Source: Amoebophrya sp. A120 (lineage: Eukaryota; Protista; Dinoflagellata). From it: a stretch of 64,000 nt of DNA. Position numbers and translations under genes: made by a program. The notes under the pieces are model-generated. The model made no database searches, was not told the DNA's origin, and saw only the letters and a program-made list of their open reading frames with translations. The stretch covers positions 2,250,231-2,314,230 of the forward strand of contig CAJINV010000004.1 in assembly GCA_905178155.1 (NCBI GenBank), written 5' to 3'. Shown piece after piece: positions 1 through 62,416 of this stretch; the first letter of the stretch is position 1; each line of letters opens with the position of its first letter.

Positions 1-390
1 GCGGTGCTTTTTTTGGTCGGAACGGAGATGGACTACGTGGAGGTCGAAATGGGGTCGGAATTTGTCTTCAACAATCCCATATCAAATGCAAAAATGTCTG
101 GGTCTGGAAGATTGGAACTTGTGATGCATGTTGCGCATCATACAAAAATCTGTGTTGCGTGACTTGCAAAAGGTGCCCATTTCTGGCCATGCTGAGTGGG
201 CATTTCTCATGCAGAACAGGCATCACAGAGGGGCTACAGGTCCTGTGATGCTAGGCCCTGCATTCCAGACTTAGTGCAGGTTAGAGAAACTGCATGAGAA
301 ATATCGGAATCTTCCAGACCCAGACATTTTTGCATTTGATATCCCAACCAAAAGTCCAGTTGCGGCTGCGGGCAGAGCTTCAATGTGTAG
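1..390 (+). CDS. ISCA: Iron-sulfur cluster assembly protein IscA/HesB family, 3' part; exons 1-79 and 347-390
   Basis: Removing 80-346 gives AVLFLVGTEMDYVEVEMGSEFVFNNPNQKSSCGCGQSFNV*, which ends in the IscA C-terminal CGCGxSF motif. Confidence 0.9.
80..341. mobile_element. Family A TIR introner in the IscA gene
   Basis: TIR TATCAAATGCAAAAATGTCTGGGTCTGGAA, with its reverse complement at the right end. DR is TCCCA/TCCCA. Confidence 0.95.
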
Positions 391-829
391 GAGTAGACCT
401 AGACCTACGTGCAGCAGCAGTAGCACGACGAAGACGACTGACTGCTGGGGCCGGACGTTGAGGACAAAGTTGTGTACAACGTTAGTAGTGCGAGCAGGAG
501 GACTCAGCTCCACCCCTTCCGTCGCCCCCGATTACTTACCCGCGGTCGCCGACTTTTATTTACCCGCGGGCTTCGTGTAAGCAAGTAAGTAAGTAAGTAA
601 GTACCTAGTTGTCTTCGGGCAGCGCAGCTACTCAGCCTACTGGAGTTTCATCACCCAAGATGGACCGACATCGCACGACATCGGGAGCACCACGGGAAGG
701 CCGCGTCGCGTGCGTCGTGGGGCGCTTTTCTCCTGCGGGGACAGAGATCCTCGGTTGAGGAGGTGGTGAAGTAGAGAAAATCGGGTGAGCAGGCGACGGC
801 ACTGCACGTGTGTCAGCAGAAGTGTCGGA

Positions 830-1120
830 AGTCCTACACGCTCGGGGTCCAGTACCTCCCTGAAAATGATTTTAGTATCTTGATGCCCCCTTCAGTTCTT
901 CACCCCGCCCACGACGGACCTGCTGGATGGTCACAGCGAGCACGATGTTGACCCTATAAACGTAGGAACAGCGATCGCGATTATATTCATGTTGTAGTAG
1001 ACTGTCTGGTGGTGTGGGCTAGTAGTGCTGCGACAGAAGATGAACAAACGACAAGGATTTAAATTGAATTCTCTTCACCTAATACGGTCACACGAGGACG
1101 ATACGACGCCGACAGTTCAC
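830..1120. repeat. Diverged dispersed repeat, copy 1 (copy 2 at about 6545-6895)
   Basis: Shared blocks CTACACGCTCGGG, GTCACAGCGAGCAC, GTTGACCCTATAA, GAACAGCGATCGCGAT and GGTCACACGAGGACGATAC. Confidence 0.75.
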
Positions 1121-1707
1121 ACAGGACAATACGACTTTCGTTTTGCTTCGCAAAACGAAAAGCGCAGCGATTGATTGCCGTATCGCCTGACCGGTGGCGG
1201 AGTTCATAACGTTCCCCAGTTGTACGGTGGAAGAGGATAAATCTATCGCGATCTAAAGACTATGCTGTTCGCTCGTCTCGCTCTTTTAGCTGCCGTGAGT
1301 GTCGAGTGTGAGATGTCGCGTAGTCGGAACTGTCCCCTGCACGGAGTGAAATTGTGTCCGTAAAAACATGAGGATGATCGTAATTTTGTGTAAAACGATA
1401 GTCACAACAAGACCTTGTTTGCCATCGTTGAAGCCTGCTCCTGAGGGCTTCCGAGAGTCAAAATGTCAAAATCCTTTGTGCGATTTGAACACGACGTTTT
1501 CGATAAAATGAAAATTCCAGATCGAGCATCGACGACGTGATCGTGTCGTTAGATTTCTTTGTTATTTTGTATCGTAACTGTGTTTATTATTACGCGAAGA
1601 GTTGTGACGACTAAGTGCGACTATGGACACACGATTTTGCCAAACAGGTCGCGCAAGTCCCCCAAGAGCATCATCAATCGTGAAAATTTAGGTTTTTATG
1701 TGCGTAA

Positions 1708-1800
1708 CCCTTGGTTGGAGGAAAGCGTAAAGTGACGTCACCCTTGGTCGTTGTAAGAAAACGTAAATTGACGTCACCCTTGGTTGGAGGAAGAGCAAAT
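1708..1800. repeat. Imperfect tandem repeat of about 35 bp, about 2.7 copies
   Basis: The unit CCCTTGGT...CGTAAA(G/T)TGACGTCA is repeated. Confidence 0.7.
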
Positions 1801-1962: not shown

Positions 1963-2298
1963 TAATATTCCACCCGAGGATGGTCCTCTGTGTGGTCTTC
2001 TCGGCGAGGAGGTCGACACATCTCCTTCTCCTTTTTAGTAGGAAGACAACTACACGGCACACTTCTGTGTCTCCTTAGTAGCCGACACATCTTCGCGGCG
2101 TTACTTAGTAGGAAGACAACTACATCAACACCTCCTTCTCCACCGGTGCAGCTAATCTGGTAACCAAAGCGTGCGCGGTAGGCTTCGCGCTGATTGGGGC
2201 GGTTCGCACGCATTTGGTTACCAATATCGCCCTCCGGGCGCGACCTCAATATTCCACCCGAGGATGGTCCTCTGTGTCTTCTCGGCGAGGAGGTCGAC
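1963..2298. repeat. Local duplications of about 50 bp and about 20 bp
   Basis: AATATTCCACCCGAGGATGGTCCTCTGTGT...CTTCTCGGCGAGGAGGTCGAC occurs at about 1963 and 2248. TAGTAGGAAGACAACTACA occurs twice. Confidence 0.75.
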
Positions 2299-5200
2299 GG
2301 CAACGTTCTTTCCCCGCACTGCCGGGGGCACCAGCTGCACCGCAGTCGTTGTTGCACGGCGCTTCTGTAGTTCACTCCTTCTTTTCTTGTTCCTCGGAAC
2401 TACGCAGAAGGTGCTACTGTTTACCAGAGCGACCACTACTTTCCGGGACGAAGGAAGTACAAGTAGCCGAAGCGACGCGCAGGCCGGCAAGAAAACGACA
2501 ACCACCACGAGGACACACGACGAACACGAAGAGCAGAAGCTGCCAAGAACTCGTGGGCGGCCCACAACAGCCCCGGTGGCCGATGACTTTTTTGACGATG
2601 ATGTTCGTGCAGGCGACGAGAAAAACGTGAAAACTCGTGCGCGTGCAAGTTCTTACACAACTTATCTGCACGGAGATGCCGTCTTCGACATCGAAGAATA
2701 TGCATTGCAAATATGTCTGGGTCTGGAACAATGATGCGAACTTGTCATGCGCATTTCAAATCGCACGAAGAATCTGTCATGCGCGGACAGCAAAAGTGGC
2801 CGACTTTGATGTGTCACCGAAATAAGAGGGGAAGGATCAGGCATTGAGATACCTTCTCAAGACCTGTAATGCCAGGGCCTCCAACATGCGGACATTTTGT
2901 GTCACGGGAAAACAGCATGACAAACTTCTACGGTCTTCCAGACCCACACATATTTGCATTTGATAAAGAAAGCAGGACACCCATCAAGCATGCCGCTACG
3001 CCAGCAGCGTCCGGGCGCGCCGCTCTTGAAGTTGGAGCAGCAGGTACTGGAGGCATAGAAGATGCTTATCAAAGGCAAAAATGTCTGGGTCTGGAAACTT
3101 GTGATGCAAGGAAGGGAATATTCAATATTGAGCACACTGTAATGCGCAGCACCCCAGCATGACAAGTTTTTCCGTGGTTCAGAGTTGCGTACCCCGCATG
3201 AGAAGCTGCGTTTTTGCATGACAGACAAGAGGACCTCTTCGCGGGCACGCAATACAGAGTTTAGAGTCATGCCAGACTAGCATGACAAATCTCGCAATCT
3301 CCCAGACCCAGACATATTTGCAGTTCATAATGCTCCAGGAAGAACAACCTCCGCCGTGGACGAGGAAGGGGAAGATGAGATTCTCGAAAAGCGTGCTGAT
3401 GAAGGTGCCGACGTCCTCACGTCTGAGCACCCGGAACATGATGCGCAGCAAGAAGCGAAGCCGGAGATGATGAAGCAAGAGCGGTCTGCTCTACTTGAGG
3501 GCGAACGTGTAGTTGTTAAAAACACCCAGCATCACCATCCGAATCTCCGGGGCGGTAGACCTGCAAGTAGTGGTAGCAGCTTAGCAACATCGTCAAGGGC
3601 GGAGGTCACATCAAGTTCTATGGTAGCGCTACAAGAGGTAGTAGTGCGGCAGATTGATGAAGAAAAATCTTCTTTCCTGAATTCAACGGCGTCATCAAAA
3701 TCGTCGGCAGAAGGTGAAAAAAGCGATGAACTTTTTAAGTCGTCGGACTTTGTGCAAAAGACTGCTGGATCCGTCGTGAACACCCGCTTGAGCAGCTCCG
3801 GAGAGACGACCAAGATGAAAGCAAAAGAAAAAGAACAGCTACTACACCAAGAAAAACAACAGCAGCGTACAACGGTGCAAGTCGGAGACCTGCTAGGATG
3901 TGTGTGCAGTGCGGGAGGACCTTCGTTCTCTTTGCCCGAGGCCTTCCTCCGCCATAATCCGTGGGCGCGTGTTGAACCGGTTTGCAAGCCGCCGGCCTTC
4001 TGCCCCATATTTGGGCGACCCTACTACGTCCCGTGGAACGCTCCAGTCTCCCTCGTGGACCAGTTTGGCAAAAGCGCAGGGTTATTGAAAGCCGCGAAAG
4101 ATAACAATGGCCTGTTCACGTCGCTCAACAGTCTACTATCACGATATCTCCTCGGACTAGAAGAAGAACCCCCGAGAACGGGCGGCCGCTCGCCTGGTGG
4201 TGTTGAAGCCGCCGCACAATCATCCCCGAGAAATAAAGTAGCAACTACCTGGCGACAACGCGCGCAGGCGCTGGTCGAGGCCGCGCAGTCTCGAATCTTC
4301 TCGACTCCTACAGATGTCGTGGACGGACATGTGGAGCAGTTATTTCGAGAGCTTGATGCGGAGTTCGACGCGGAAGTATCAAATGCAAAAATGTCTGGGT
4401 CTGGAAGGATGCAAGGTTTGTCATGCACGGTTTGCATGACTCCTGATGTCTGCGATGCATGCCCTAGCATCACAGATCTTGTGAGGGCTTTCTGATGGTG
4501 CCTATACCGTATGAGAAATGCCCTCTCGCCGGGGCCAAAACCAGACCTCTTTTGCTGTTCATGCAATACAGATTTTTGGATAATGCAGACGCAGCATGAC
4601 AAGTTGCATTCTTCCAGACCCAGACATTTTTACAGTTGATAGGAAGAGGGGTTAGACGATGGACTCGACGTGGTTGACCCGAGGCTGCTTGAAAACCCCC
4701 CGCCCGGAGCTTTGGTCAGCCCGGTTGCCGCGGTCTTTGACTTGGACGAGGTGGATTCCGACGGGAGGGGAACGGGGCTGCGTGGCCGCTGGGACTCGCC
4801 GACCAACGCGGACCCGTTTCTGCTCCGCTTCACTCCAGACCTCGACGTCCCGCACTCGCACTACAGAATGTCCAGAGTCACGCAGTTCTCGGAGTTGTTC
4901 CCGCACGACGTCTACCAAGTGCAAAAATGTCTGGGTCTGGAAGAATGCAACTTGTGATGCTGCATTTGGATTCCAAGAAAATTTGTATTGCATGAGTACC
5001 AAAGGGAATGCAGTTTTTGCTACGGCGCTGAGAAGACATTTGTCATGCGGAATAGGCACCAAGAAGGCCTCAAAACATCTGTATTGCTAGGGTATGCATC
5101 ACAGACATCATGGCTCATGCAAAACGTGCATGACAAGTGTCAGAATCTTCCAGACCCAGACATTTTTACAGTTGATAACGTCGCACAGCGCACCCCCAGA

Positions 5201-6581
5201 AGATCACCTCCCGCCGCGGAACAAGCGGACCCTGGAAAAGGAAATTTGCATTCCCGTAGAGATAATAAATCGAAGCATCGAAGCATGCTTGACGTATCAT
5301 TTTCAAGTGATATTACGGCATATGGTGACGTTTTTGTGTATTTTTTATTGCAAGGAAAAATCCCCCCGTCCCATATCAAAACGAAATTTCTGATGCTGGA
5401 TTTGTGTACACAGACCAGCTGCAGGAAGGCACTCTTGCGGCCAGATCCCCAGGCTAGGTAGGGGCGTATGAGTCTAGTTCTTCAGCATGGCAGACGGCTC
5501 CCCTTTAAGCCCGCCAGCGTGGCAAATCGCTTCCCTAATGGGGCGGAAGCTTCTGCCCTTGTCGTCTTCCAAGACACACTTGATTTGTGGCCTCAAATCA
5601 GGAGCACAAATTTTCGGAAACATAGGTTTTCAATATGGGGAGGGGGGATTTTCCATTTTGATACTTTTCCAGTATTATTTCCGCATGGGATTTTGCGACT
5701 TCTGCAGATCGAGCTGTCTTCGAGGCGCCGCCACGGCTTCACAACATGTGCTATCCCACGAAAAGAGTGTAGTTTCACTGTAAGGATTTTGCAAGTTGTT
5801 TTGCATGAGAAGTTTGATGTTCTACATGGCGAAGAAAATTTGCCATGCGAGGTTGTTCCTAAGGGAAATAAACACAACTATAGAATCAATTCCCTGTCTT
5901 GCATGTGTAGTAGCACGACAAACACTTCTATAGATGCATTACAAGTTTACCCTGAAGTAACAGTTTTTTCCTGCGATATGTGTGTTGAGTCGTGTATTCT
6001 GTACATGTACGAATACGTGACCGGGGGGGACGCGCCGGAAGACAAGAAAACAGATGATCCTGCCTATCAAAAAGAAAAATCCCCCTCCCCCATATCGAAA
6101 ACGAAATTTGTGATGCAGTATTTGAGTACAGTCTGACTCATGATCAGTATTCTTGATCATGCTTACAGTACACAAATTGTCTTGCTGGAGAGGACTGCAG
6201 ACCCATATCAAGCCTGAGGAGAGAGGCTTTGACTTAGGCGCTTAGCATGAAAAGCGTCCGTGATGTTGGCTCAACAGCATGACAAACCGGCTCCATAATG
6301 GGACGGAAGCTGCTGCCCTTGTCTTCTTGCAACACAAACGTGATTTGTGACCTCAAATCAGTAACACAAATTTTCGAAAGCCTACCTCTTCAATATGGGG
6401 AGGGGGGATTTTTCCTTGCGATACTGCCATGGTGCGCGCGCTCCTCCGGGTACATGGAGCGCTCGTGCGGTACGCCGAAGATCCTGAGTCTCCCGGCGCC
6501 GTCTCCAAAGTGGGGTTTTTTGGCGACCCAGACGCTGTGGCGGCAGTTCTACACGCTCGGGAGCCAGGAGCAGCTCCCTGA
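2171..6581 (+). CDS. Hypothetical multi-exon protein (start and middle exons uncertain)
   Basis: ORFs 2171, 2869, 3356, 4670 and 4988 join in frame when each element plus one DR is removed (DIEE|SRTP, EDA|PGR, AEE|GLD, HDV|AQR, DPA|MVR). Confidence 0.6.
2699..2965. mobile_element. Family A introner
   Basis: Family A TIRs; DR AAGAA/AAGAA. Confidence 0.92.
3067..3329. mobile_element. Family A introner
   Basis: Family A TIRs; DR ATGCT/ATGCT. Confidence 0.92.
4377..4641. mobile_element. Family A introner
   Basis: Family A TIRs; DR GGAAG/GGAAG. Confidence 0.93.
4913..5177. mobile_element. Family A introner
   Basis: Family A TIRs (left end TAC); DR ACGTC/ACGTC. Confidence 0.92.
5346..5663. mobile_element. 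Family C element (TIR TAT-N7-AAAAATCCCCC(C)TCCCCATATC)
   Basis: Family C TIRs; DR TTTTT/CTTTT. AT-rich context, possibly intronic. Confidence 0.85.
6065..6423. mobile_element. Family C introner
   Basis: Family C TIRs; DR CTGCC/CTGCC. Confidence 0.92.
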
Positions 6582-6895
6582 AGTTGATTTTAGGATGATC
6601 TTGGTGTCCTCTTCACCCCCACGACACGCCTGCCGGATAGTAGTCACAGCGAGCACAATGTTGAGGTTGACCCTATAACCGTGGGAACAGCGATCGCGAT
6701 AGTCATGTTGTAGCAGACTGGTGGTGTGTAGCTGTACTACTGCGACACACGATGAATAAACAATTAAAAAAAAAAATGAAAAAAAACTTAAAAAAGTCCA
6801 AAAAAATCAAGATACTTGTAAAAAAAACCCACGACAAGGATTCAGATGCGCTTCAACTAATATGGTCACACGAGGACGATACCCCGCCGACACTT
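6545..6895. repeat. Diverged dispersed repeat, copy 2 (copy 1 at about 830-1120)
   Basis: Same blocks as copy 1, with an A-rich insertion. Confidence 0.75.
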
Positions 6896-7050
6896 CGCGG
6901 ATCTTTCTTATACTAACTGCATGCAAGGATGAGGGGAAAGCGCCCTTGTCACCTATACAGCTTTTCTTTGCTGTTCTTGTGCACGAGATGCAATAGAAAT
7001 ACTTGAATGCAAGGTCCATTTTGATGTATCTCACTGCCCGTCGTTTTCAG

Positions 7051-8840: not shown

Positions 8841-11800
8841 ATGATGCAAGGCCTACTGAAGCCGTACAAGAACGTGGCTGCTATCCTGAGCAGAAACGTC
8901 CCTGCCCCAGAGTCAATGATTGGGTACGTAGCAATAAAAGAAATCCAGAAGCTTTCGGAGTCACGCATGACAAGTTCCTCGCTGCATTGTAGTGCAGTTG
9001 AGCAAGCGCGGCCGCATGACCACAGTGCCGTCCTCTCCTTGTCCTGTTTAGAGCAGCGCTAGTACAACTACACATGCCATCAAAAGTTACGGCTGGAAAT
9101 GTCTACTTTGTCATCATGGGCGGGACGCGCATTGCAAATGTTAATGTTCCTGCAGTGCCAAATCTGCATGACAACCCAACCCTGCTGGGGTGAGAACGTT
9201 TTTGTCCAGGATAGCCGTGGAGAAGCAGCAGCGCGACGCGGCCAACAAGTCCAACGCCTCGGAACTATCAAATGTAAAAATGTCCGGGTCTGGAAGACTG
9301 CCAGGTTTGTGTTGCATATTCTGCATCAGCCACCAAGCATCACAGATTCTTAGAGGGCTTTGTGATGCCGATTCCGCATGAGAGATACCCTCCACACGTG
9401 GCACAAACTGGCCTCGTCTTGCTGGTCATGCATCACAGATTTCTTTAGAATCCACAGACAGCATCACAAGTTGGATCCTTCCAGACCCAGACATTTTTAC
9501 AATCCATAGGAACCTCTCTCGGTCCAATCTGGCATCAGCTCGGATGGCACGCACTCCTCCGCCGGGGCGGCGCACCAGGGTATGACGAACGAAGATTTAA
9601 GTAATTCTGCCCGCTTCCTCCGTATTTGTACTAAATGTATGTTATCCCACAGAAAAAAGCTGGCAGGTCACATTTGTAATGCAAAAATAAATACACAAAG
9701 CAATCTGTATTGCGTATCCGAAGCAGCATGCTATGAGGCCGCCCATGGCAGATTTTTCTGTGTATTTATTTTTGCATTACAAATATGCCCTGCCGGCTTT
9801 TTTCTGTGGGATATATGTTGAAACTCAAATTATATTAACCTCGTTTCCTCAGCCTGCGAGCTGTCTGTTCCATGATCGGCATGGTGACAGAGTATCGAGA
9901 AAAACCGTACATCAACCGCAGTACGCATGGATTGCGAGAACTGTGCCCTGTTTGGAATCATGGCATCCTATGGCGTCACTGATTCAACATGCAGCTAGTG
10001 TTAGAAGATAAGGCGATGGGAATATGGTGAAAATTATACTTCTTGTTTACTCATTCTGCATCTTCACTTGCGACGAGCTCTTTTACCACTACCAAATAAG
10101 GAGGTTGTTGGACGGGTGGAATCAAGGGGTTTTTTGTGCACGCTGATACATGACAGCAGCAGTACCCAAGCGACGTCGAGCGGGGAGTTGAGTCCGCCTA
10201 TCAAGAAGAGAAATCCCCCCTCGTCCCAATATCGAAAAGGCACGCCTCAGAAAATTTGCAGTGTTGATTTGGGGCCACAAGTGGCCTCTTTCTTGCAAGA
10301 AGGCAACTGCTCTACCGGCTCCGCGGTTTAGGATGCTCCTAGACCGCATTACACAGGCGGTTTGGGATGCCTACGTTAGACCTAGTACAGGGAAGGCGTC
10401 TGCCATGCTATGCGCCTACCCCAAAACATCCGCGCTAAGGCGGTCCAGTACTGCAAGTCACAGTACTGCAAGACACAGCTCCGGATTTGTGTACAATAAA
10501 CCTGCATCACAGATTTCCGCTTTGATAGGGGGAGGGAGGATTGATTTTTCTTCTTGATACCGCCCACGTTGCTGCACATCCGGAAGCCGTTCTGCCAACC
10601 GGTATTACAGTGAAAAATGCCCCCACGACCCCGGAATTTGCAAAAGGTTCTCATGCATAAGGTTTTCAAATGAAGAACTTTTTATTTATGCATAAAAGGA
10701 CTATGACTATGAGCCTCTCTGATGCAGCAGAATCTAGGCACGGAAGGTAGTTGCTGCATCAGAGATCCGCCTGCTCTTGGGCTCCTTTGCAAAACAAATT
10801 TCAGCTATTCAGCATGGCAAATTTGTCATGCTGATATATGCAAGACGGGGAGTGTTTCCATCGGAAGGGTTTGCAATACAAATGCTGCCAGGTAGTGCTG
10901 GGGTGTGGGCATTTTTCATTGTAATAACAGGAGCCGCGGATCAAGGACAGAAAAGAGCGGGAGAAGGCGGAACGTATCAACTACTATAGTGCTGATTTAT
11001 TTGACTTCTCTGTTGGACTTGGAGTTGGTCTAGTATCGCTTGTGCTCCTTCGAACAAACCCAAAAATCCTCTTCCTGACTGTACTCGCCGGCTTGCCAAA
11101 TGTTGCGCGCGGACGAACATCAATTCCCCAGGTGCTATGCCCGTCCCGGTTTCCTCCAGTCCTTCGCTGGCACACAGGACGTTTCTCGGCACCGCCTACC
11201 TGGGCTTCAACAAGAACCACACCGGCGCGCTATCGTATTTAAAAACGTCCCTAACCCATATTTGTATATGCAAATTTGCATGCTGAAAATGTTTCTCATG
11301 CGCAGCCCAATTAGAAGCATTTTCTACCTGCGTTTTGGAATTTGTTATGCGCCAACCAGCATGACCATGACATACTAGATCTGTGATGCTTCTGAGCTAC
11401 CTCAAACAGCAACACACTACGAGTCCGAATTTGTCATGCAAAACAGCCAAAGCGTGTGGTGTGGATTTGTCTAGCCGATTCCCCGTCTTGACTATGGGGT
11501 GGGGACGTTTTTACATGGGATACGCGCCCAACAACCTGCACCCGGTGCAGAACGTGAAGGACAAAGAGGTCCACGTATTGAGAGGAAAAATCCCCCCTCC
11601 CCATATCGAAAAGGTCTGCTTCCGAAAATTTGTGATGCAGACTTGTGACCACAAATGCTGTCTGTCTTGCAAGAGGGCAAACTCAGAGACTCCGCCACGA
11701 TATGCAGACGATTTGTAATGCTGCAAGACCTATAGGGCAGACGTCTTCCATGCTAGGCCCCTACACCAAGAGGCCCGCCCTTAGGCTTGCGATCTGCGTG

Positions 11801-48200: not shown

Positions 48201-51200
48201 GACCAATGTCCGTCGATTTGGAGCAGTTCCGGGATATTTCCTTGCAGTCCCTGGACCCCTCGGAAATCATGCCGGCTGCTGTTGCGGCCACGGTCACCCA
48301 GCAGGCGGAAAAGCTGCAGGAAACGCTGCGGAAGAAACCGGCAAAGAGGCTGCACAAGGACATGGTGCAGGAGTCGCAGGCGCGGTCGCCTTGGTCGCCA
48401 CTGCCCAAAACGGACGTAGAGGAGATTCTGCTGGAACAACAGAAAGCGAAAGCGAACACGGGCATCAACCTGTACCACCCCCTGGCGAACCCGACGGACC
48501 GCTTTTTGCCCAGCTTTCTCTTCCCCCACCCGGCGGTCCACGGGGACTACGACTTTTTTCACGAAGACTTGCCCTATCTGATTCAGAAGCAGCAGCTATC
48601 CAATCGATGGAGCAAAAGTCGTGCGTTTAAAATGATCGCATGGTCGTATGAATTGCATAGATAAATGATAGGCAAAAACATGAAAATGATCCCTTTTCCT
48701 TTACTTAAAACTCGTTTTAGAATTACATCAACAATAAATAAAAATGCAATTGGTACTAAGTGCGATTATACCGATACATCACGTACTAGTACTTTTGCAA
48801 TGCATAGCAGCACCAGAAGCACGACCTGGAGGACCACGAGTACTTGATTCTGCCCATGGCCCGGTTTGCTAACGAGCCTTTGGTCGGCGAAAACCGGGTG
48901 CGCTTGGTTTTGTCGAAACTGGAAAAATTCCCGATGCTCCGGAAGAACAACGGCATGTCCCTGCTACCCCCACTACACAAGAACATCCCGAAGGCGCCGA
49001 AGAAGAAGCCGAAGATCTTCCCCCCGAAGGGCGTCGCGGATATGTTGAGGAAGCGGAGGGAGAAGCCGCACGTAACCCACCCGCTGGCGATCTACCACGA
49101 CGCGGTCGTGGCGATCGAGGAGCGGTGTAAGGCCATGAAGGAGGAGTGCCGGAACAAGCTGAAGGAAAACCAGCTGCGTTCGCGGCGGATTTGCATCAAG
49201 AACGCGCAGCTGCCGCATTCCCGGCGCCGGCAGGTGTTGAAGCAGATCGCCTGCAAGCGGTCGGAGTTGAAGAAGCGACAGTTTTTGGCCGTGAAGCCCG
49301 TGATCAAAGCTGCCGACCCGCCCCCGAAAAAACCCGGGAAGGCGGGCGGCCGCTGGCGGGCGGGCTTCGCGAAGATCACGGGCAAGATATCCTGAGTAAA
49401 AACGTCCCCATTGTACCAGAGTCAAGATGGGGAATCGGCTAGACAAGTCCACGAGTTTTGGCTGTTTTGCATGACAAATTCGGAGTCGCAGTGTAGTGCT
49501 GTTTGAGGTAGTTCAGTAGCATCACAGATCTAGTGCATCACGCTGATAGGCGCATTACAAATTCTCGAACACGACCAGAAAATGCTTCTCATGTGTCTCC
49601 GCATGACAACCATTTTGAGCATGCCGATTTGCATGACAGCTCTGGGGTCGTGGGGACGTTTTTACACAGGATACAAGATGCCGCCGACGGAGCGGCCGAG
49701 TTCGGGCGGCGGCAAGAAGTCGCTCTTCATGGCCGCCTTCACGGACCGGGCCGACAGCGACGAGGAGCCCATTGAGGACGTGGAAGTAAAACCGGACACG
49801 CGGCTAGAATTGGACAAGCTCGAGTCCGTCGACAGCACGACCGTGACCGCGCTGTTGAGTCCGCGATACGACGGTTCAACCATGAACCAGGTGGTGCGCC
49901 CGGCGGTGACCAGCGGGCCCAAGAACAAGCACGCGTGGCCGCTGCCGGAGGAATCCAACCTGACCGTCACCCCCTCGACGCAATTCTACCGGGACTTGAC
50001 CCTGCAGGGCCCCTGGTACCAGGGGGGCATGTCGCGCGTGATTCAGACCATGCAAAACGAGCAGCCCCAGAACACGAACGCGGGTGTGGATGCGGCGAAT
50101 CTGCTGAAGAAGCAGGACAAGCACCAGCTCCGGGAGTACTCCATCAAAGACACCGCGGACTGGTATCCTGAGTAAAATCGTCCCCACCCCGATCCCAGAG
50201 TTGTGATGCAAATGTGCAATGACAGCAACATTTGTAATGCGCAGTTCCATGAGAGGCATTTCCAATCGTGTTTTGGAATTTGTAATGCCGTAAACAGGAT
50301 GAGAAAATGGCTTTCTAATGCGGCTCCCCTTGCCAACCACCACTACACTGCAGAGCGAAACTTGTCATGCACAGCTCCCAAAACTTGGAGACTTGCGTTG
50401 CTAGATTCCCAACTTGACTATGGGGTGGGGACGTTTTTGCTTGGGATAACTGGCGCATCCTGTTCGACTGTTTCTACCCGAAGGATCGGACGAAAAAGCC
50501 GCGGAAGCACCCGATCCTGATCCGTACGGAGCAGACGACGAACGCGAGGTTGATGTTCTCGGAGACGCTTTCGATGGTGTTGCGGTCTTTGCATTTGCAC
50601 CCACTCGGGGACACGAAGCAGATGCACTTACAGGTAAAGGAGCTGGTGGAGTACCGGGCAAACGCGGCCAGGATGCAGCTGTCGAAGATTTTCAAGAAGG
50701 AAGTGAAGCAGAAACCGACCAAGTGGAACAAAGACACCTTCACCACCACTATGCAGATGTTCCAGCAAACCGAATCGCCCGCGATGTTCGAGCAGGCGCA
50801 ACTGAGCACCGACTGGTACACTGGGCCCCGGGACAAGCAAGCGTCCCTGCCCACGAGCAAGGAGGTCCGGCGGGTGCTGGCGCGGCAACTGGACTACTAC
50901 GTCACGTGCACGGACGAGTTTATCGACGCGTTTCGACAGGATTTTCCGCCGCTGGACGAGGATACCCAGGCCATGCTATGGTGAGCAAAAACGTCCCCAC
51001 CCCAGAGTCAAGATGGCAAATCTGCTTATACAAATCAACCAGCTTTGGCTGTTGCGCATCACAAATTTGGGCTCGCAGAAGTATAGTCGTGTTTAGCTAG
51101 TGAAGCAGCATCACAGCTCTAGCATACCATGCGGATGCGAGCATCACAAATCGCAAAACACCAGCAAGGCCTGCTTCTCATGGGTCTCCGCATGAGAAAC

Positions 51201-54200
51201 ATTTTCAGCATGCAGATTTGCATTACAACTGTGGGTTGGGGACGTTTTTACAAATGATATATGCTGGACATGGGCTTGGAGGAGTACCACCCGAAGTTCT
51301 GCACAGTGGACCACTTTCTCGAGGTGTTCCAGGCGTTGCGCGCGAACCACGGGTTCAGCAACAACGAGCTGGACGGGATCACCTACTGGTTTTTGAAGCA
51401 CCCCTTCTCCGCGGAGTCAGTCCGCCGGTTTTTGCTGCGCTGGGGCTACGCGACGGACTTCGAGGTGCTGTGGGACAGCGCGCGACAGGTGATTCCGGGA
51501 ATCGTGAAGAAGGAGAAGTCAACGAACACAAACAGTACCCAACTACACTCTATCAACTGTAAAAATGTCTGGGTCTGGAAGGATCCGAACTTGTGATGCG
51601 AGTTGCGGATCATACAAAGATCTGTGTTGCATGACTGGCAAAAGGTGCTCACTTCTGGCCATGCTGAGAGGGTATTTCTCATGCAGAATAGGCATCACGA
51701 AGGGGCTGCAGAACCTGTCATGCTAGGCCCCGCATTCCAGACTTGACAGAGCTTGGAAAAACTGCATGACAAATTTCGGAATCTTCCAGACCCAGACATA
51801 TTTGCAATGCATACACTCCGTGTCCCAGTTGTCCCTAGATGCGACGGGGGGCGCGAACAACCAAAGCCAGTTGCGCCAGGGCAAGGGACGGAGGTCTCTC
51901 TCCAAGATGGACAGCGTGGTCAGCAACGTCGACGAAAGCAAATTCAAGCCCTTCGAAAGCGTCGGCGACAGCTCGGCGTACTGTTTATTTTTTATTTGAA
52001 TTTTGTATTTCGTATTCGTACTACTACTATTCTATGAAGTTTTTCTTAAGATGTCAACGTAGTGCACTCCCTTGTTGTGCTGCTCCGTTTACTCATCGGG
52101 TCGGATGGTCTTTCAAGTGCTATACACATCTGGAACTTGTAGCAATGAACACACATCACAGGTCTTCGAACAACGAATCCGCCGAAGAGTGGGAACTGCC
52201 GGCTAACTGCAAGCTGTGCGTTATGCTGAGCAAAAACGTCCCCACCCCAGAGTTGTCATGCAAATCCGCATGCCAAGAAAGTTGCTCATGCGGAGCCCCA
52301 TGAGAAGCATTTTGTAGTCGCGTTTTGGAATTTGTGATGCTAGAATAAGCATGATAAGCTAGATTTGTGATGCTGCTGAAATAGCAAAACAGCACTACAA
52401 TACGAGAACAAACTTGTCATGCCAAACAACCAAAGCTGGTTGTTTGTCTAGCAGATTTCCCATGTTGACTCTGGTGTGGGGACGTTTTTGCACAGGATAT
52501 GCGTCCCCCAGATCGCGTACGTGCTGCAACACCTCATCGCGGCCCAGGAATTGAAGGTCCGGAAGGTTTACGAGGAGTGTGTGAAGGAAGACCAGCGGCA
52601 GCTGCTCGCGAGTGGCAAGTCCGGCCCGGTCGAGGATTTGCCGAGGTTGAGCGATACCCATTTTGACGAGGACTTCCCGCGGTTGCGGTACGCGCCGATT
52701 CCGAGTGAGACCGTTTTGTCCCTGTTGCCGTTCTATCAAATGCAAAAATGTCTAGGTCGAGAAAGTTGGAACTTGTGATGCTGGCCTTACATTCCTGAAA
52801 AATCTGTATTGCATGACCAGCAAAAGACGTGGCGTCTTCTGTCATACAAAAACGCAGTTTCTCTTTTGCAGAAAGCGTATGAGAAATAACCGTTCTGCAA
52901 ACTTGTCATGCTTGGCTGCATTGGGAAGCGCTTTCATCATGAACAGTTCAGCATCACAGATTTCCAGACCCAGACATATTTGCAATGCATACGTTCCCGC
53001 CCTACGTGTCGTTGATGCAGCCCGTGCCCGCGATCTACACGCAGGACGCGCTGCGGAAGTTCGTGCGCCAGGTGATTCAGTCCCACGGCTTCTCCACGTC
53101 GTTCCTGATGCTCGCCCGGAACTGCTTCTACCGGATTGTGGACAAGACGCCCGACCTGATCGACCTGAACGCGCAATTCTACCTACCGGAGGTGTTGGCG
53201 ACGGACGCGGATATCGTCTTCGACAGGTACCACACACGGGAACAGCGCATCAAGCCGGAAGACGGGTCCTTCATTCTGCCGCCGAATAGCCCGCTGCTGC
53301 CGGATGCTGCGGCGAGCGGAACTGTATTAGGAAACAATAGCAACTCAAGTGCGACATCAATATTACATAGCGCGAATCAGGATGACAACATGAATTCTAG
53401 TCCGCTGACGTTGAACCGGGAGCAGACGAGCCTAACGCAGCTGTCCACCATGTCGGCTGCGAGTGTGATGACGACGGGAACGGACGGTAGGCCGAAGAAG
53501 CGGTTTAAGCGCCAGTTGTCTTCCTCCCCCAATAACAATCCGGACCCGACTTTTTGGTCGGACACCTTTCACATTATGGAGCGCAAAAAGTGGGACAACA
53601 AGCACTTCCTCCACCCGCGATTCTTCTCCTGGTGGATCCAGAAGATGGGTTTCAACAGTTGCAGTGTGTACGATCTGACCTTTCTGCAGCGGAGAAAAGA
53701 GCCGTTAGACTTGTACGACTGCCTAGAAATTCTCCGGCCTTTACTGGAAAACGAAAAGTTCATGATCTCTCAACTGTTTGTCCTCTATGTGATCACGCCG
53801 CCCCGACCCCTCCGCACCTACATCTCCGGACCCAAAGAGTTCCCGGAGGCGGACGCGCCGCGCGGGTATTTGTTATTATCTTTCGACGAGGCGCAAGAGA
53901 TGGCGGCGCAGGGCCACGACCCGCACAAGGTCGAGGTGCTGATGGGGCTGCGAGACGACGGGAAATCCCGGGTCGACATGGACGTGTTGTTGCAGATCTT
54001 CTTAACACTCACCGCCTTCCCACGGGACCGGATGGACCAGGAGTGCCTCGAGGACTTCAAGCTCGATTTTGTCAACGCGTCGATCGAATCGACGGTGGAA
54101 GCGGGGGAGAAACAGCACGACGGCGGGGAAAAGATCGCGCTCAACTTTTTCAACGTGGTCAAGATGCTGAACAAGATCCGGATCGCAAGTGCGCTGGACG

Positions 54201-55628: not shown

Positions 55629-55936
55629 TATGGATTGCAAATATGCCTGTGGATCCGGAAAACAAAGTGTAAACTTTTGATGCGTCGTGCGGGGCACACA
55701 AAAATCAGTCCTATTTGGCTATTATACCTGCAGTTGGCGGCCCCTTTGATCTCAATTGGGGAAGAGTTTTCTCATGCAGGATTTGCATTGTCAAGAGCTG
55801 CTCACAGGTGAGTCTGTGATACTAGACCCTGCCTTTCAGACCTCATTCTCGGGCATGGAACACCCGCATGACAATAATCCTAGCGGGAGCACACCGCTTC
55901 GACTTCCAGAGCCAGCAGACGTATTTGCAGTTGATA
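55629..55936. mobile_element. Degenerate family A-like element
   Basis: TATGGATTGCAAATATG...CGTATTTGCAGTTGATA; DR CCTCG/CACCG. Confidence 0.6.
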
Positions 55937-56499: not shown

Positions 56500-57714
56500 T
56501 CGTCCAGTTTTACGATGATTTTTCATGCATGACGATAACGCGACAAAGAAAATCAGTTACTTCAATGCCAGTGTGGGTCATTTTGCTTTCCAATCGATTT
56601 CCATAATATCCCAGGTGAATTTGAACACGAGCAGGCGAAAGAGGAATGGCAAGTGCGTATGAGAGTGCACAGCTTGTTTCCTCTCCTTCATTTAGCATAC
56701 AAATTTCCATGTCCACTCTCAGCTCTGCTCGGGTGACATCAGCATCAGGAGGTCGCGTATACGAAATGTAGTGCTACAATCGTCCATGATGTGCCACGGA
56801 CTTCCCGTTCAGAGACAGCATCTTCATTTGCGGCCTTGGTGTTCCTGCTGCATCTGCCCTTCGAAAAATGAAGCGCAGTGGGAGCAGGTGTTGTGCACTC
56901 TCATATTGCAGGCTAGTCAACACGCGATCGTGGGCTAGAAGAGCGCGGCTGTTTTAAAGCGGTTTCGAGCTCGAAGTATGTATGGCAGTGGACAACTTCT
57001 TCCTCTTCCCGGCGTTTGTGATGCAAAAGACCGGTTTCGCTTCCAGGTCCAGCGCTTGGCAACGTGAGCATCGAGGAGGAGGGGTTGTTCACTATCATGC
57101 TCTAGGGCCCGCCTTGTTGTGGAGTACCTTCGTGTAAGATTTTTTCTACGAATTGCAATTTTCTGTACCTAAATGAGTTGGATTTATTTCGGAGGATGAA
57201 ACACTCCCAATATCACTGCAGTATGCTGTCATGACCCCATTAGCGGCCGAAGCCGAATGTAAAGACCATGAGATTTTTGTGCACTATTTACGGAATGAGC
57301 AGAAATTGACGTTTCCCTTTGTACGATGGTGGACAAGAAGAGCATCACGTGAATGCGAGGTAGGTGACGACTCTCAAACACAAGAAAAATCAATGCTAGT
57401 GAGAACTGGTGGTGCACATGCCGTCCGCTACAGGCGGCGGTGGGAAGCGCAGAGATTTGAATGATTGGTCATTCTGTTCTTCGCTGTCTGTTCGGGCGAT
57501 TTATTTTCACAAATTTGGATTTTGTCTTTCGGTAAAATGATGATCCCATTGTGTGTTTCTCTTCTGCTTTTGGTAATTGAAGAACGAAGCTTTTGTACTA
57601 TTTTGATGTTTTATATTTATTTCGGATCTTCCTCGAAACCAACAGGTGCAGGTGTCGTCAAAAAATCAATTATAACTTCGTTATACCAATCGTCACAACA
57701 ATCGCCTCGATAAG

Positions 57715-58741: not shown

Positions 58742-59342
58742 TTCAAAAGAACAAGCGGAAAGGGCGCGGCAGGAACTGATTCAAAAGATCAGCGGCAAGC
58801 GCTCGCGCTGGGTGCGTTTACCCAGCCAACGAAGGGAGGTCTGGCACCTCGAAGAAGAAGACCAGGTGCCTCTCACCAGTACCCGATGTTACGCATGTCT
58901 GAGCGTCGCTTTGGTATGCGAACTTCTGAAAGATCCATCAAGACTCGTTCTTTTCTCAATGCGAGACAGACTTTGTTGTTTGAGAGGCTGATCTCCGATC
59001 TGGAAAAATTTTCAAATTGTTTCAACGGTGAACATCTGTTCCGGAAGAAAAAAAACGACGACGTTCTTGTTCAGATCTCGCCTGTTGCTCTGTTTGGAGC
59101 ATACTATTCTTCCGATCCTTTACTAAATGCTTCGTCTTAATACGTTTATTTTTTTACAATCGTGCTGATCCCAAAAAAAATCGCTATTTTTGCAACGGAA
59201 ACGTGCTCCTCCTCCGAATCCGAAATGAGAATAAAACCTCATGTCAACACCAGTTTCCGTAGTCGTGATCCGAATTGCATTTGCTAGACGCAAGTTTAGT
59301 TTTCTGTTCGAAGACTCAAAACCAACCCCACTCTCCTTCAAA

Positions 59343-60630
59343 ATGGCCAATCCGAAGGTTTTCTTTGACATGTCCATCGGCGGCGCCAACGCCGGCCGCA
59401 TCGTCATGGAGCTCCGCAAGGACGTCGTCCCGAAGACCGCCGAGAACTTTCGTGCTTTGTGCACGGGCGAGAAGGGTACAATAGGTTTTTGAGTGTGTGG
59501 AAGGCATGATATTATTCGCAATAAAGTGCATTTGAATCATGTTGTTCGAAGGAGAAAGAGATGCATTGACAACTCTCGTCGAAGATGCACCAAAGATCGT
59601 GAAAAAGAACAAAATAGATCTTGGTTCATCGAATAATATCCGACACGAACAGGTATGGGCAAGTCCGGCAAGCCGCTGCACTTCAAGGGCTCCGCTTTCC
59701 ACCGCGTGATCCCGGACTTCATGTGCCAGGGTGGTGACTTCACCGCGGGCAACGGAACCGGTGGCGAGTCCATCTACGGTGCCAAGTTCGCCGATGAGAA
59801 CTTCCAGTTGAAGCACACTGGACCGGGTACTGGTTTTTTTATGAATTTGTGTTGCGGATTTTGACGAGGGATGCATTTTGTGTTGCAGATTTTGCGTTTA
59901 GCAAATTCTTTTGTGTCATTAGGAAGAGGAACTAACGTATCAATGCGTGATCTAAAATCCCAAATCGAATAAATCCGCAGGTATCCTCTCCATGGCCAAC
60001 GCCGGCCCGAACACGAACGGATCCCATATGGCGTTCTCAACTGTTACATTCTCAACTGTTACATGGATTTGTGATGCAAGAACAGCAAAAGTGAAAGGGG
60101 TCACCTTGCGCGTCTTGCGTGACAGATCTGGCAAAGATTCTCAGCCTGTTTGGCTCTTCGAGAATTTGTCATGCGAAGCAGCTCGATCGTGTCAATTCTG
60201 ATTGTGATTTTGCATGACAAATCATGTAATAGCTCAGAATGTAACATTTGAGAACGCCATATCCCAGTTTTTCCTGTGCACCGTCAAGACCGCCTGGTTG
60301 GACGGAAAGCACTGCGTCTTCGGCTCCGTCGTGGAAGGTACTTATTATATCAGGACTGTGTTGCTATCGTTGTAATTGTATACGAACAATTTAGGGCAGT
60401 GACTTCTGCTTTTGCGAAGTAGAGATACATCATCACGGGATTGTGATAGTACTTAAAAAGTCGCCTTGCACGACCAGCCCTACCGCAATTGAGGTCGTTT
60501 TTTGATTTAACAATTCGCAATGCAAACACACTTTTCAGGTATGGATGTCGTGAAGAAGATCGAGTCCGTCGGCTCCCAGTCCGGAAAGACCGCCAAGCCG
60601 GTTGTGGTCTCCGACTGCGGGCAGTTGTAA
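59343..60630 (+). CDS. CYP: Cyclophilin-type peptidyl-prolyl isomerase; exons 59343-59475, 59653-59826, 59981-60026, 60267-60337 and 60539-60630
   Basis: [33 protein letters not shown] and [32 protein letters not shown]. Three GT-AG introns plus one TIR intron. Confidence 0.97.
60027..60261. mobile_element. Family D introner in the cyclophilin gene
   Basis: TIR TATGGCGTTCTCAA(C/A)TGTTACATTCT, 25/26 match; DR TCCCA/TCCCA. Removal restores NGSQFF. Confidence 0.95.
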
Positions 60631-62017
60631 GCTGTTTGGCATGCATAGCTTCGCATACCAGCGCAAGATGAGCTTGTTACGGTGTAATCATAACAACGGT
60701 GTAGTACTAATCAGGACTAGCTGCCGCCGCGCGCAGGTGGACAGAAAAAATTACGCAAGAACAATATCTCTACGCGGTTTGTATTACATCCTCAAAATCT
60801 TTTTTACTTTTTCAAAAGCGCTCGCCTAAATGACGGCGCAATCGAACAACGTCTCCTCTCGCAAGAGTAGGAGTTCCTTTCTACTTACTTCTTCGAGTGG
60901 CGCTCTTCATCTGCCGGCACTGACGCTGGCTCTCGATCATCAGGGCTGTAGTAGTACCTCAACATACTAGTTTACGGGTCGTGTGTTGTTTTTCTTGGAA
61001 AGCAATCACACAGCCGCGGCTGTATAAGAGGATGTAGTGGTTGGTACCAGGCGCAGGCGTCTAACCTAGAGATTTGCTGTCGAGCACTTTTCGTCACCAA
61101 TTCTACCGTACTGTTTACACTCTCAATGAAAAATGGTCTCGCAGTTATGCCTGTGTATGAATCTAAGACTTGGGAATGACGCTTGTATACAAGGCGTTTG
61201 TAATTTTCGCTTCTCCACAACCCGAAAGGAAATGAACTGTACTGTAAGAATTTTTCGCTCCCCTCGAATAGTTGGCTACGAGTACGATGTGCGTTTTTTT
61301 TCACGGTCGGGAGAAGAAAAGGAACGTTACAACACGTCGATGTAAGAAGTTTCACCGTAACGCTTGGCGATCCATTTTTACGGCTGAAAAAGTAGAAGCA
61401 GTGCAGCAGTGTAGGCTACAGGTGAACAAATTAAACGGGCTTGACAATAAGTACACTGAAGAACTTGGAGCCACTTTCTGACCGAGAGTTCGCTTCTGGA
61501 AAGGAAGTCAGGTTCAAAAAACTGAAAGTGTGGTTTCACCCAAGAAAAGCGCAGCTCGGCAGCATGAAGAGAAAAAGAGGAGAAAGTCGGGGACCGATTC
61601 GTCCGAAGCGGTCACAAGATTTTCATTGGCGGTGACGCTGAAGAAGATGCGTGGTTGTTCAGTAGATAAGGGTCTCTTCGTTGTGGTGCGCTAAATTGTT
61701 TTTTCCTTTTCGACGCGAGCATCTTTTTGCTTATTTCTTCTACCGAAGATTTCAGTGACGAGTGAGGTTTTCTTCAACCTTTTCTTCCCCTTCCGAGTCT
61801 AGTCTGACCGCGCACGACACGTGTTGCAGTGTAGTTGCTTGTGAATTATATTTGTCGTCGTTTTTACCATGTTATTTTCCTTCCCACCTGTGGTAAACAC
61901 ATCCGCAGATCTCAGAGTGGCAAGAGACTGACAAAAAATCTTAGTCAAGAACAAGATCGAGAAGGAAAAATAACAGCATCTCTTCAACCAGACCGACAAA
62001 AAATCCAAAACTTCAAG

Positions 62018-62416
62018 ATGGCGGGCAAGTCGCAGGAGCTGATCAACAAGTTGCTGCAGGCCGAGGATGAGGCCGAGAAGATCATCAAATCGGCCCGTGA
62101 CATGCGGTCCAACAAGCTGAAGGACGTGAAGTCTGCGGCGGAGGAGGAGCTGGCGCCCTTCCGCATGAAGGAGGAGCAGAAGTTTTACGACGAGCAGCGC
62201 GCGGTTGTATCCTGTGCAAAAGTGACGTATTCGTATTGCAATCATGCATTACAAATTTTGTTCTTCAGGTAAATCAGCATTACAAATTTTGTTTCTCATG
62301 CTGAGGAAATTTGTAATGCATTTATACGAGTGCGATACTTTTGCAATTCATAGGTTGCGGCCCAGAACAGCATGTCGATGGATTTGGAAAAGTCCACGGC
62401 GGGGGAAATTGCCGCG
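62018..62416 (+). CDS. ATP6V1G: V-type ATPase subunit G, 5' part (exons 62018-62207 and 62358-62416; 3' end not found)
   Basis: MAGKSQELINKLLQAEDEAEKIIKSARDMRSNKLKDVKSAAEEEL matches the subunit G N-terminal pattern (LLxAExxAxxxVxxAR...RLK). GT donor at 62417. Confidence 0.8.
62208..62352. mobile_element. Short family E introner in the V-ATPase G gene
   Basis: TATCCTGTGCAAAAGT...ACTTTTGCAATTCATA; DR GGTTG/GGTTG; frame restored on removal. Confidence 0.85.

What the first reader, a model, noticed from the sequence alone, without database searches (positions are those of the whole stretch)
80..62352. About 50 TIR/5-bp-DR elements act as precisely removed non-GT-AG introns, even inside conserved housekeeping genes
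Seen: elements run TAT...ATA, have TIRs and a 5-bp DR, and interrupt conserved motifs of IscA (NNP|NQKSSCGCG), BiP (PTKK|SQIFS and ERPM|TKDNH), cyclophilin (NGS|QFF) and V-ATPase G. They introduce in-frame stops (for example at 21291, 60201 and 62272). Removing the element plus one DR restores the protein exactly, and no slide within the DR gives GT-AG or AT-AC in these genes, while normal GT-AG introns occur in the same genes. Established: inverted/direct-repeat introner elements forming non-canonical introns were reported in Amoebophrya (Farhat et al. 2021, BMC Biology), so the class is known, but to my knowledge the removal and mobilisation machinery is unresolved. Inference: a second excision system operates alongside the U2 spliceosome.
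Basis: partly seen in the sequence, partly recalled or inferred. Interest (0 to 1): 0.92.

Follow-up and report, generated by a model that had tools for sequence, protein, structure and literature searches.

The report
Transposon introns with a fixed cut
In a marine parasite of algae, 58 short transposon-like inserts crowd the protein-coding genes of this 64-kb stretch and are missing from the messenger RNA wherever reads cover them; this intron class is already published, but all 12 informative junctions agree on one cut position (one base before the insert, four bases after it) whatever the end letters are, which likely means a modified form of the normal splicing machine removes them.

Summary
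Confirmed, and the class is known. The window's spliced BiP is identical to the Amoebophrya sp. A120 protein, so these are the introner elements of Farhat et al. 2021. I count 58 TAT…ATA elements with a 5-bp duplication; 56 sit in coding exons, 2 are nested. RNA removes element+5 at 19, annotated proteins at 22 more; the DNA run keeps them.

Not found in six paper searches: imperfect duplications fix the cut. All 12 informative junctions share one register, N|TAT…ATA NNNN|, tied to transcript direction and independent of duplication identity or element orientation. This disfavours RT artefacts and DNA excision. Against this: no preference for G+1 or AG (4 of 290).

One correction: the V-ATPase G element can slide to GT-AG. 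No transposase was found. The scan noted similar hairpin introns in two other dinoflagellate genomes (unchecked).

The parts
80..341 (.). Element in IscA-type gene, repeat TCCCA/TCCCA; intron at the mapped register would be 79-345
   Evidence: NNP|NQKSSCGCG restored; gene name from the recalled motif, no RNA test
2699..6423 (.). Seven elements in a 772-aa gene of unknown family: 2699-2965, 3067-3329, 4377-4641, 4913-5177 (starts TAC), 5346-5663, 5752-5978, 6065-6423
   Evidence: all 7 of 7 removed (+5) in library protein P0122; the two imperfect repeats are synonymous, so give no register information
8841..15640 (+). MOB1-domain gene carrying 18 elements and 3 GT-AG introns (10974-11131, 12617-12771, 13738-13925)
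   Evidence: A120 protein P0121, PF03637; element-free parts had about zero depth in X3 and X21
8882..9213 (.). Element, repeat GCTGC/GCCGT; register k<=4
   Evidence: protein reads NVAVE
9266..9508 (.). Element, perfect repeat
9581..10148 (.). Decayed element (TIR 8/25), repeat CAGGG/CATGA; register k=3 or 4; GT donor with non-AG acceptor; holds nested element 9643-9813
   Evidence: exon map of P0121 and printed ends, register read by hand; terminal pairing still predicted
10199..10559 (.). Element, perfect repeat
10603..10926 (.). Element, repeat ACCGG/ACAGG; k>=3; GT-AG at k=4
11231..12537 (.). Elements 11231-11522, 11576-11897 and 11939-12537 (with nested 11957-12215)
12860..13145 (.). Element ending ATT, repeat CTTGT/CCTCT; k not 2 or 3
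13195..14851 (.). Elements 13195-13358 (k>=1), 13410-13661, 13958-14212, 14240-14553 (k>=1), 14595-14851 (k>=3)
14986..15241 (.). Element, perfect repeat
15255..15568 (.). Decayed element (TIR 13/25); the annotated protein reads into it, so it is retained or mis-annotated
18999..22708 (+). BiP/Hsp70 gene: 5 GT-AG introns and 2 elements
   Evidence: Pfam HSP70; spliced product identical to P0004 of Amoebophrya sp. A120
21284..21562 (.). BiP element 1, repeat GAAGT; intron 21283-21566
   Evidence: skip 284 in X3 and in 183+179 reads of X21, 0 in DNA run X1
21643..21898 (.). BiP element 2, repeat GATGA; intron 21642-21902
   Evidence: skip 261 in X3 and in 257+273 reads of X21, 0 in X1
25930..30440 (.). 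Elements 25930-26225 (decayed), 27201-27376, 27493-27814, 28447-28890, 30121-30440
   Evidence: frame restoration only: 739- and 817-aa open frames
32376..40364 (.). Elements 32376-32687 (ends ATG), 32745-33008, 37259-37513, 37548-37858, 38079-38442, 39783-40047, 40103-40364
   Evidence: frame restoration; junctions not seen in a read lay
40547..40901 (.). Element, repeat CCGGA/CGCTA; k=4 or 5
   Evidence: RNA joint 40545>40906, skip 360, 1 base ambiguous
42183..42443 (.). Element, repeat AAGTT/GAGCT; k=4 or 5
   Evidence: RNA joint 42181>42448 in X3 and X5
42632..42841 (.). Decayed element (TIR 11/25), repeat GTTGA/AACGG (1 of 5 alike); k=3 or 4
   Evidence: RNA joint 42629>42845, skip 215 = 210+5
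46024..52991 (.). Eleven elements in one large gene: 46024-46285, 46511-46763, 47346-47651 (GT-AG at k=4), 47714-47976, 48597-48806 (decayed), 49388-49673, 50164-50448, 50977-51259, 51551-51813, 52222-52499, 52734-52991
   Evidence: one RNA contig of X5 spans 45091-54799; 6523 nt expected after removing 11 elements (+5 each) and one 184-nt GT-AG intron, 6523 observed
55629..55936 (.). Element, repeat CCTCG/CACCG; k=3 to 5
   Evidence: RNA joint 55626>55940 in X3 and X5
56658..56905 (.). Element found only through RNA, repeat GTGCG/TTGCA; k=1 to 4
   Evidence: RNA joint 56653>56907 in X3 and X5
60027..60261 (.). Cyclophilin element, repeat TCCCA; intron 60026-60265
   Evidence: RNA joint 60020>60261, skip 240, X3 and X5; Pfam Pro_isomerase
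62208..62352 (.). V-ATPase G element, repeat GGTTG; GT-TT at k=4 but slidable to GT-AG at k=1
   Evidence: no RNA test

Best explanation
These are non-coding elements with terminal inverted repeats and a 5-bp duplication, likely spread by an integrase-type transposase, that are absent from the mature RNA, with the cut at one register (N|TAT…ATA NNNN|) in all 12 informative junctions, and they are likely removed by a modified U2-type spliceosome. Step 1, insertion (inferred): a Ginger/IS3EU-like DDE enzyme binds the ends and a repeated subterminal motif (TTGT[ACG]ATGC) and duplicates 5 bp with little sequence preference. Step 2, removal from RNA (shown): element plus 5 bases, in both element orientations, with the repeat allowed to decay. 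Step 3, register (shown for 12 junctions): the 5' cut lies one base before TAT and the 3' cut four bases after ATA, so exon 1 keeps four bases of the left copy and exon 2 keeps the fifth base of the right copy. Step 4, recognition (inferred): the inverted repeats fold back and bring the ends together, probably with a dedicated adaptor that replaces U1 and AG recognition. TAT is read as +2..+4 of a normal donor and the 3' site is measured from ATA. The system probably began with insertions into NNAG|G sites, which give ordinary GTAT…AG introns in this same register, and the end dinucleotides were freed later.
For: Removal: 10 of 10 non-GT-AG RNA joints displayed equal element+5; an 11-element transcript matches to the base; DNA run X1 shows neither BiP joint and its contigs run from exon into element. 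Register: five RNA joints allow k={4,5},{4,5},{3,4},{3-5},{1-4}; seven protein junctions allow {0-4},{3,4},{3-5},{0,1,4,5},{1-5},{1-5},{3-5}; the only common value is 4 in each set, P about 0.002 under independent random registers. Spliceosomal reading: host GT-AG donors are GTA in 16 of 17 and GTAY in 13 of 17, and position -6 is T in 11 of 17 against 25% background; element donors are NTAY in 58 of 58 and -6 is T in 58 of 58. Two of 58 elements are plain GT-AG at k=4. In related loci the TAC variant fell at the inferred donor end 4 times and at the acceptor end once (with window cases Fisher P=0.08, suggestive only). All 9 predominant A120 motifs in Farhat Table S4 have T at +2, and all 9 A25 motifs start TT where the repeat starts TTA. 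A120 keeps nearly all spliceosomal proteins while U1 snRNA was not detected. Mobility: 186 of 235 repeat-blind TIR pairs have an exact 5-bp duplication, and lengths 3, 4 and 6-9 score 0-5. The motif occurs 116 times in elements and 4 times outside. Families lie in both orientations, 7:5, 3:3, 4:2, 5:2. A120 family 38, with integrase-like homology, is listed with '5-bp TSD, TA/TA termini'.
Against: No sign that G+1 or AG is preferred: 4 of 290 related elements are GT-AG at k=4 (about 8 expected from base composition, my arithmetic), and all four bases occur at +1. A spliceosome indifferent to +1, -2 and -1 has no precedent known to me (recalled). TAT is predicted paired with ATA in most elements, so it would have to be unwound. 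The -6 T may just be a short pyrimidine tract. No lariat, branch point or snRNA dependence was tested. Seven of the 12 junctions come from an annotation of the same genome and are not independent of its RNA data; five come from assembled contigs, which hide minor isoforms. P0121 reads into element 15255. No transposase was found in the 100 longest of 193 open frames of the related loci, and Farhat et al. report none in A120.
Confidence: 0.55

Rival explanations
1. Same elements and same register, but a separate non-spliceosomal RNA cut-and-join activity measures one base and four bases from the ends of the hairpin, working like the nonconventional introns of euglenids.
For: Complete freedom at +1, -2 and -1; strong terminal duplexes in most elements against weak ones in GT-AG introns; no strand-specific internal signal needed. 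Euglena uses a stem-plus-spacer code, N3 CDG…CH'G N5-6, with the longer spacer on the 3' side and proposed non-spliceosomal factors; its introns are released as circles (review passage).
Against: It leaves unexplained why the cut falls on the one of six registers that lines TAT up with canonical GTAY and with the NNAG|G split. Elements with no predicted TAT:ATA pairing (42632, 48597) are still cut at element+5, so the ruler follows the motifs and not the helix end.
Confidence: 0.35
2. The elements are cut out of the DNA of the transcribing (intracellular) stage, like ciliate internal eliminated sequences, and the RNA simply copies the cleaned DNA.
For: TA ends, inverted repeats and strict location in coding exons would suit it. 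DNA of the infecting stage was not tested separately, and contigs drop rare forms.
Against: DNA run X1 holds the elements and not the joined forms (this run may be the source of the assembly, and some joints were not counted). A symmetric DNA enzyme would give k=4 or k=1 on the sense strand depending on orientation; 7 of 12 junctions exclude k=1 and none excludes k=4 (chance (1/2)^7, my arithmetic). Within families the k=1-excluding copies that could be oriented all lay the same way, so the argument rests on random orientation.
Confidence: 0.04
3. The joints are reverse-transcriptase template switches across hairpins flanked by direct repeats, or the loci are pseudogenes with intact copies elsewhere.
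For: Hairpin plus direct repeat is the classic setting for such artefacts (recalled); all RNA evidence here is cDNA.
Against: Joints with 1/5, 2/5 and 3/5 repeat identity are still exactly element+5. Depth inside the BiP elements in X21 is about what the 80-nt exon alone gives (47.8 and 48.1 against about 46, my estimate). RNA contigs match the window exons with 0 other letters. Read-through hits stops, and intron lengths are even modulo 3 (21/18/18).
Confidence: 0.02

Closest known systems
Introner elements / non-canonical introns of Amoebophrya sp. A120 (Farhat et al. 2021, PMC7789003; abstract, sections 10-12 and 16, supplement passages and Tables S4-S6 read; figures not seen)
   Same: Same organism by protein identity; repeats starting TAT + 7 nt + AAA, 3-5-nt direct repeats, about 240 nt, RNA-supported removal, mixed with GT-AG introns.
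   Different: That paper calls the splice sites variable relative to the hairpin and the border unknown and found no family-wide motif beyond the repeat start. Here the duplication is exactly 5 bp, the cut has one register, and a subterminal motif is shared across families.
A120 introner family 38, classed TIR DNA / Ginger (Gozashti et al. 2025, PMC12130899; section 6, passages, 40 of 58 A120 rows of supplement file 8)
   Same: 5-bp duplication and TA/TA termini; integrase-like homology.
   Different: About 810 bp with partial coding remnants; the window's elements are 145-599 bp and non-coding. I could not compare sequences with that family.
IS3EU/GingerRoot and IS481EU DNA transposons (Kojima and Bao 2023, PMC10045372; passages)
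   Same: TA..TA termini (IS3EU/GingerRoot) or TNT..AYA (IS481EU), short inverted repeats, integrase-like DDE enzyme.
   Different: Their duplications are usually 6 bp (IS3EU) or about 4, 15 or 25 bp (IS481EU); here 5 bp, and no transposase is in hand.
Nonconventional introns of Euglena (Nomura et al. 2025, PMC12501133; passages)
   Same: Free end dinucleotides, inverted repeat near both ends, fixed spacers with the longer one at the 3' side; code found from non-slidable introns.
   Different: Spacers are 3 and 5-6 nt around CDG/CH'G; here 1 and 4 nt around TAT/ATA, with the motif coinciding with canonical donor positions +2..+4. Unrelated lineage.
Non-GT/AG introns of the tunicate Fritillaria borealis (Soo et al. 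2026, PMC13326754; passages)
   Same: Transposon-derived non-canonical introns handled by a U2-type spliceosome with altered adaptors (duplicated U2AF, changed m6A).
   Different: Those keep preferred end motifs (AG-AC, AG-AT) and a conserved U1; here no end dinucleotide is preferred and U1 was not detected.

Membership tests
Amoebophrya A120 introner elements (Farhat 2021) | Host is Amoebophrya A120 | tested here: met
   spliced BiP identical to P0004; MOB protein exon 100% to P0121
Amoebophrya A120 introner elements (Farhat 2021) | Inverted repeat starting TAT, 7 looser bases, then at least 3 A | tested here: met
   position counts over 84 ends and 470 ends of related loci (those were selected on TAT)
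Amoebophrya A120 introner elements (Farhat 2021) | 3-5-nt direct repeat at the exon/intron boundary | tested here: met
   37 of 58 perfect 5-bp; 186 of 235 repeat-blind pairs
Amoebophrya A120 introner elements (Farhat 2021) | Removed from mRNA at non-GT-AG sites | tested here: met
   19 of 58 by RNA; 22 more by annotated proteins; 2 nested; 15 untested or, in one case, retained in the annotation
Amoebophrya A120 introner elements (Farhat 2021) | Repeated families | tested here: met
   clusters of 12, 7, 6, 6, 3 and 2 at 66-95% identity, leaving aside one self-nested match; 41 of 57 have a relative over 80% of their length in the loci
U2-type spliceosomal intron | G+1 and terminal AG | tested here: not met
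   2 of 58 in the window and 4 of 290 in related loci are GT-AG at the mapped register
U2-type spliceosomal intron | Donor +2 T, +3 A in canonical register | tested here: met
   58 of 58 elements NTAY; host donors 16 of 17 GTA
U2-type spliceosomal intron | Lariat with 2'-5' branch; dependence on U2/U5/U6 | not testable with these tools
   no back-joint among the rows displayed, but 670 and 12 joints were not shown and the libraries are cDNA
U12-type (minor) intron | RTATCCTT donor with U11/U12 snRNAs | tested here: inconclusive
   consensus recalled; one element family starts TATCCT but most start TATCAA; U11, U12, U4atac and U6atac reported absent in A120
IS3EU/GingerRoot transposons | TA..TA termini | tested here: met
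IS3EU/GingerRoot transposons | 6-bp target duplication | tested here: not met
   0 of 235 pairs have an exact 6-bp match, 186 have 5 bp
IS3EU/GingerRoot or Ginger transposons | Integrase-like DDE transposase in a cognate autonomous element | tested here: inconclusive
   none in 100 of 193 long frames; no whole genome held
Euglena nonconventional intron | N3 CDG…CH'G N5-6 code | tested here: not met
   mapped code is N1 TAT…ATA N4

The most novel reading that the evidence does not exclude
Amoebophrya A120 has a dedicated RNA excision system, separate from the spliceosome's chemistry, that reads only TAT and ATA at a fixed 1-and-4 spacing. It would make any insertion of this transposon clan harmless at any sequence and in either orientation, a host tolerance system that let tens of thousands of elements colonise coding exons.
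Probability: 0.35. Interest if true: 0.9.

Novelty: already known. Interest (0 to 1): 0.6.

Why it matters
How the majority of introns in this parasite are removed is stated as open in the papers read. A fixed register turns that into direct tests: it says where a lariat or circle junction must lie, which bases to mutate, and how to re-annotate tens of thousands of ambiguous junctions. Either outcome is unusual: a spliceosome that ignores G+1 and AG, or a second nuclear splicing chemistry that converged on the euglenid design. It also shows how a transposon can become sequence-blind and orientation-blind as an intron source.

Tried and rejected
No whole genome was held, so nothing genome-wide was done. 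The first read lay aimed at the MOB1 gene, whose element-free parts had about zero depth in X3 and X21; the DNA run flooded the joint table. X22 is a relative of the strain (all of its laid reads ran on unlike the stretch) and X23 laid 0 reads, X21 only 2 reads on the second stretch: no test. A protein search for the gene with element 25930 found nothing, so that decayed element rests on frame only. P0122 gave no register information. Long candidate elements in the loci: L067:476-2934 is a chance pair around a host exon; L042:5001-5972 has no frame over 86 aa. No TIR match in viral contigs, no Rfam match in the window, no integrase or transposase domain in 100 frames. Frame restoration alone cannot separate +5 from +2 or +8 (41, 39 and 33 of 57); the exact value comes from RNA. 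The idea that element 9581 lacks a hairpin was dropped because folding still pairs its ends. Strand calls in the loci are inferred (48 of 51 right on the window); 124 of 156 family-A pairs and 290 of 352 elements passed the filters. Earlier scan notes by place and by sequence were empty.

Full report
Observation. A scan for TA…TA ends found 35 pairs with a perfect 5-bp flanking repeat and at least 16 of 25 complementary bases, against 0 in each of five shuffles. Adding decayed copies by profile, by frame and from RNA gave 58 elements of 145-599 bp, about a quarter of the window. The end consensus is TAT C AAA T G N AAAAA T G T. With approximate gene models, 56 lie in coding exons and 2 inside other elements; none lies in the 43% of element-free DNA that is intergenic or GT-AG intron. 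One claim fails: the V-ATPase G element can slide to GT-AG.

Identity. A BiP exon is 100% identical to a protein named Amoebophrya sp. A120, and the whole spliced product equals it. The end motif matches the A120 introner description in Farhat et al. 2021 (PMC7789003, section 11). The object is therefore already published. Two other Amoebophrya strains use almost only GT-AG introns (PMC12005148, passages).

RNA and DNA. In BiP both elements are skipped by exactly element+5 in RNA contigs (X3) and in raw reads of a different study (X21: 362 and 530 reads, a template-switch library that may stem from few molecules), next to five GT-AG joints; the DNA run shows neither skip and its contigs run from exon into element. 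X3 and X5 are flagged as guessed RNA, but they lack GT-AG introns. In the second lay, 8 of 8 non-canonical joints displayed were element+5 (12 joints not shown), and one 6.5-kb contig matches the removal of 11 elements and one GT-AG intron to the base. Library proteins P0121 and P0122 support 15 and 7 more; P0121 reads into element 15255. IscA and V-ATPase G were outside both lays.

The cut register. Where the two repeat copies differ, the mRNA shows which copy each base came from. Let k be the number of left-copy bases kept. RNA joints allow k={4,5} (40547), {4,5} (42183), {3,4} (42632), {3-5} (55629), {1-4} (56658). P0121 allows {0-4} (8882), {3-5} (10603), {0,1,4,5} (12860), {1-5} (13195), {1-5} (14240), {3-5} (14595) and {3,4} (9581, read by hand). 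Each set alone intersects at k=4; P is about 0.002 for independent random registers. The intron is N TAT…ATA NNNN. The annotation is not independent of this genome's RNA data, and contigs show majority forms only. Farhat et al. describe the border as variable or unknown, yet all nine predominant A120 motifs in their Table S4 have T second. Six searches turned up no paper stating this register. I could not see their figures 3, S19 and S23, did not read Roy et al. 2023, and files 13-14 and 18 of 58 A120 rows of the Gozashti 2025 supplement were not seen.

What the register rules out. Repeats with only 1-3 of 5 bases alike are still cut at element+5, so repeat pairing is not needed; this disfavours template switching. 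Families lie in both orientations and both are spliced (21284 and 49388; 21643 and 46511), while the register follows the transcript direction (7 junctions exclude the mirror value k=1, none excludes k=4); this disfavours a symmetric DNA enzyme. Elements without predicted TAT:ATA pairing (42632, 48597) are cut the same way, so the ruler is anchored on the motifs.

Which machine. The elements give NTAY in the same register. An insertion into NNAG|G gives a perfect GTAT…AG intron at k=4, and two window elements are such. In A25 the repeat starts TTA and the predominant donors start TT, again +2 T, +3 A if the cut is at the repeat start (inference). A120 keeps nearly the full spliceosome but no U1 snRNA was found, and the tunicate Fritillaria shows that adaptor changes can widen splice-site choice. 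Against this, the end dinucleotides show no canonical bias at all, and Euglena offers a stem-plus-spacer system thought to be non-spliceosomal. I put the modified spliceosome at 0.55 and a separate enzyme at 0.35. Neither was tested directly.

Mobility. The same families occur in a metagenome assembly (136 loci, 134 in the script box, 352 elements; best matches 71-97% identical, no orthologous genes to the window). Pairing ends without looking at the flanks gives an exact 5-bp duplication in 186 of 235 and almost never another length, with only a mild GC target bias. The motif TTGT[ACG]ATGC occurs 116 times in 48 of 56 elements and 4 times in 48 kb outside, in both orientations, the first copy often 32-46 bases from an end; I infer a DNA-binding role for a transposase. 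TA termini fit IS3EU/GingerRoot, whose 6-bp duplication does not. Gozashti et al. list A120 family 38, with integrase-like homology, as 5-bp TSD and TA/TA termini, the best lead for the mobiliser. I found no autonomous copy.

Verdict. Real, known class, in the genome where it was described. The added value is a definite splice code and the narrowing of mechanisms, which makes the open question testable. Other papers seen as passages only: PMC9860276, PMC11453091, PMC11282704.

Noticed in passing
window 62418-64000; L013 (- strand, about 3850-3278): The next V-ATPase G intron starts G|TATGTT with the subterminal motif about 38 bases in and runs off the window (over 1.58 kb). It holds a 17-bp x16 tandem array (62509-62783). 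The same array lies in L013 inside an element whose ATA end is present and whose other end was not found. Candidate long family.
   Followed up: partly
whole window: All non-nested elements (56 of 56) are in coding exons (58% GC), none in intergenic DNA or GT-AG introns, which make up 43% of element-free DNA. Either targeting, or loss by imprecise deletion where that is harmless.
   Followed up: partly
window and L001-L134: Element lengths cluster near 150, 210, 260 and 320 bp, steps of roughly 55 bp; unexplained.
   Followed up: no
window 9705-9750 and 11460-11493 (run X22): An RNA run of a related strain holds hundreds of reads with element-like sequence of the same families, so some elements persist in its transcripts or as separate RNAs.
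   Followed up: no
window 10974-11131 and 22275-22509: Two GT-AG introns look like converted elements: one starts G|TATCAAC like an end repeat, the other holds two exact copies of the subterminal motif.
   Followed up: partly
window 8841-15640: A 382-aa MOB1-domain protein is encoded in about 19 exons, some under 30 bases, with 18 elements in 6.8 kb.
   Followed up: yes
window 880-1080, 6620-6900 and 7050-7110, 8070-8130: Non-coding repeats shared between intergenic regions, seen by eye, not TAT…ATA type.
   Followed up: no
window 2264-6578: The 772-aa protein has five relatives at 58-71% identity and no others in the 50%-identity library; a lineage-specific family, and the 345-aa exon tested had no Pfam match.
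   Followed up: partly
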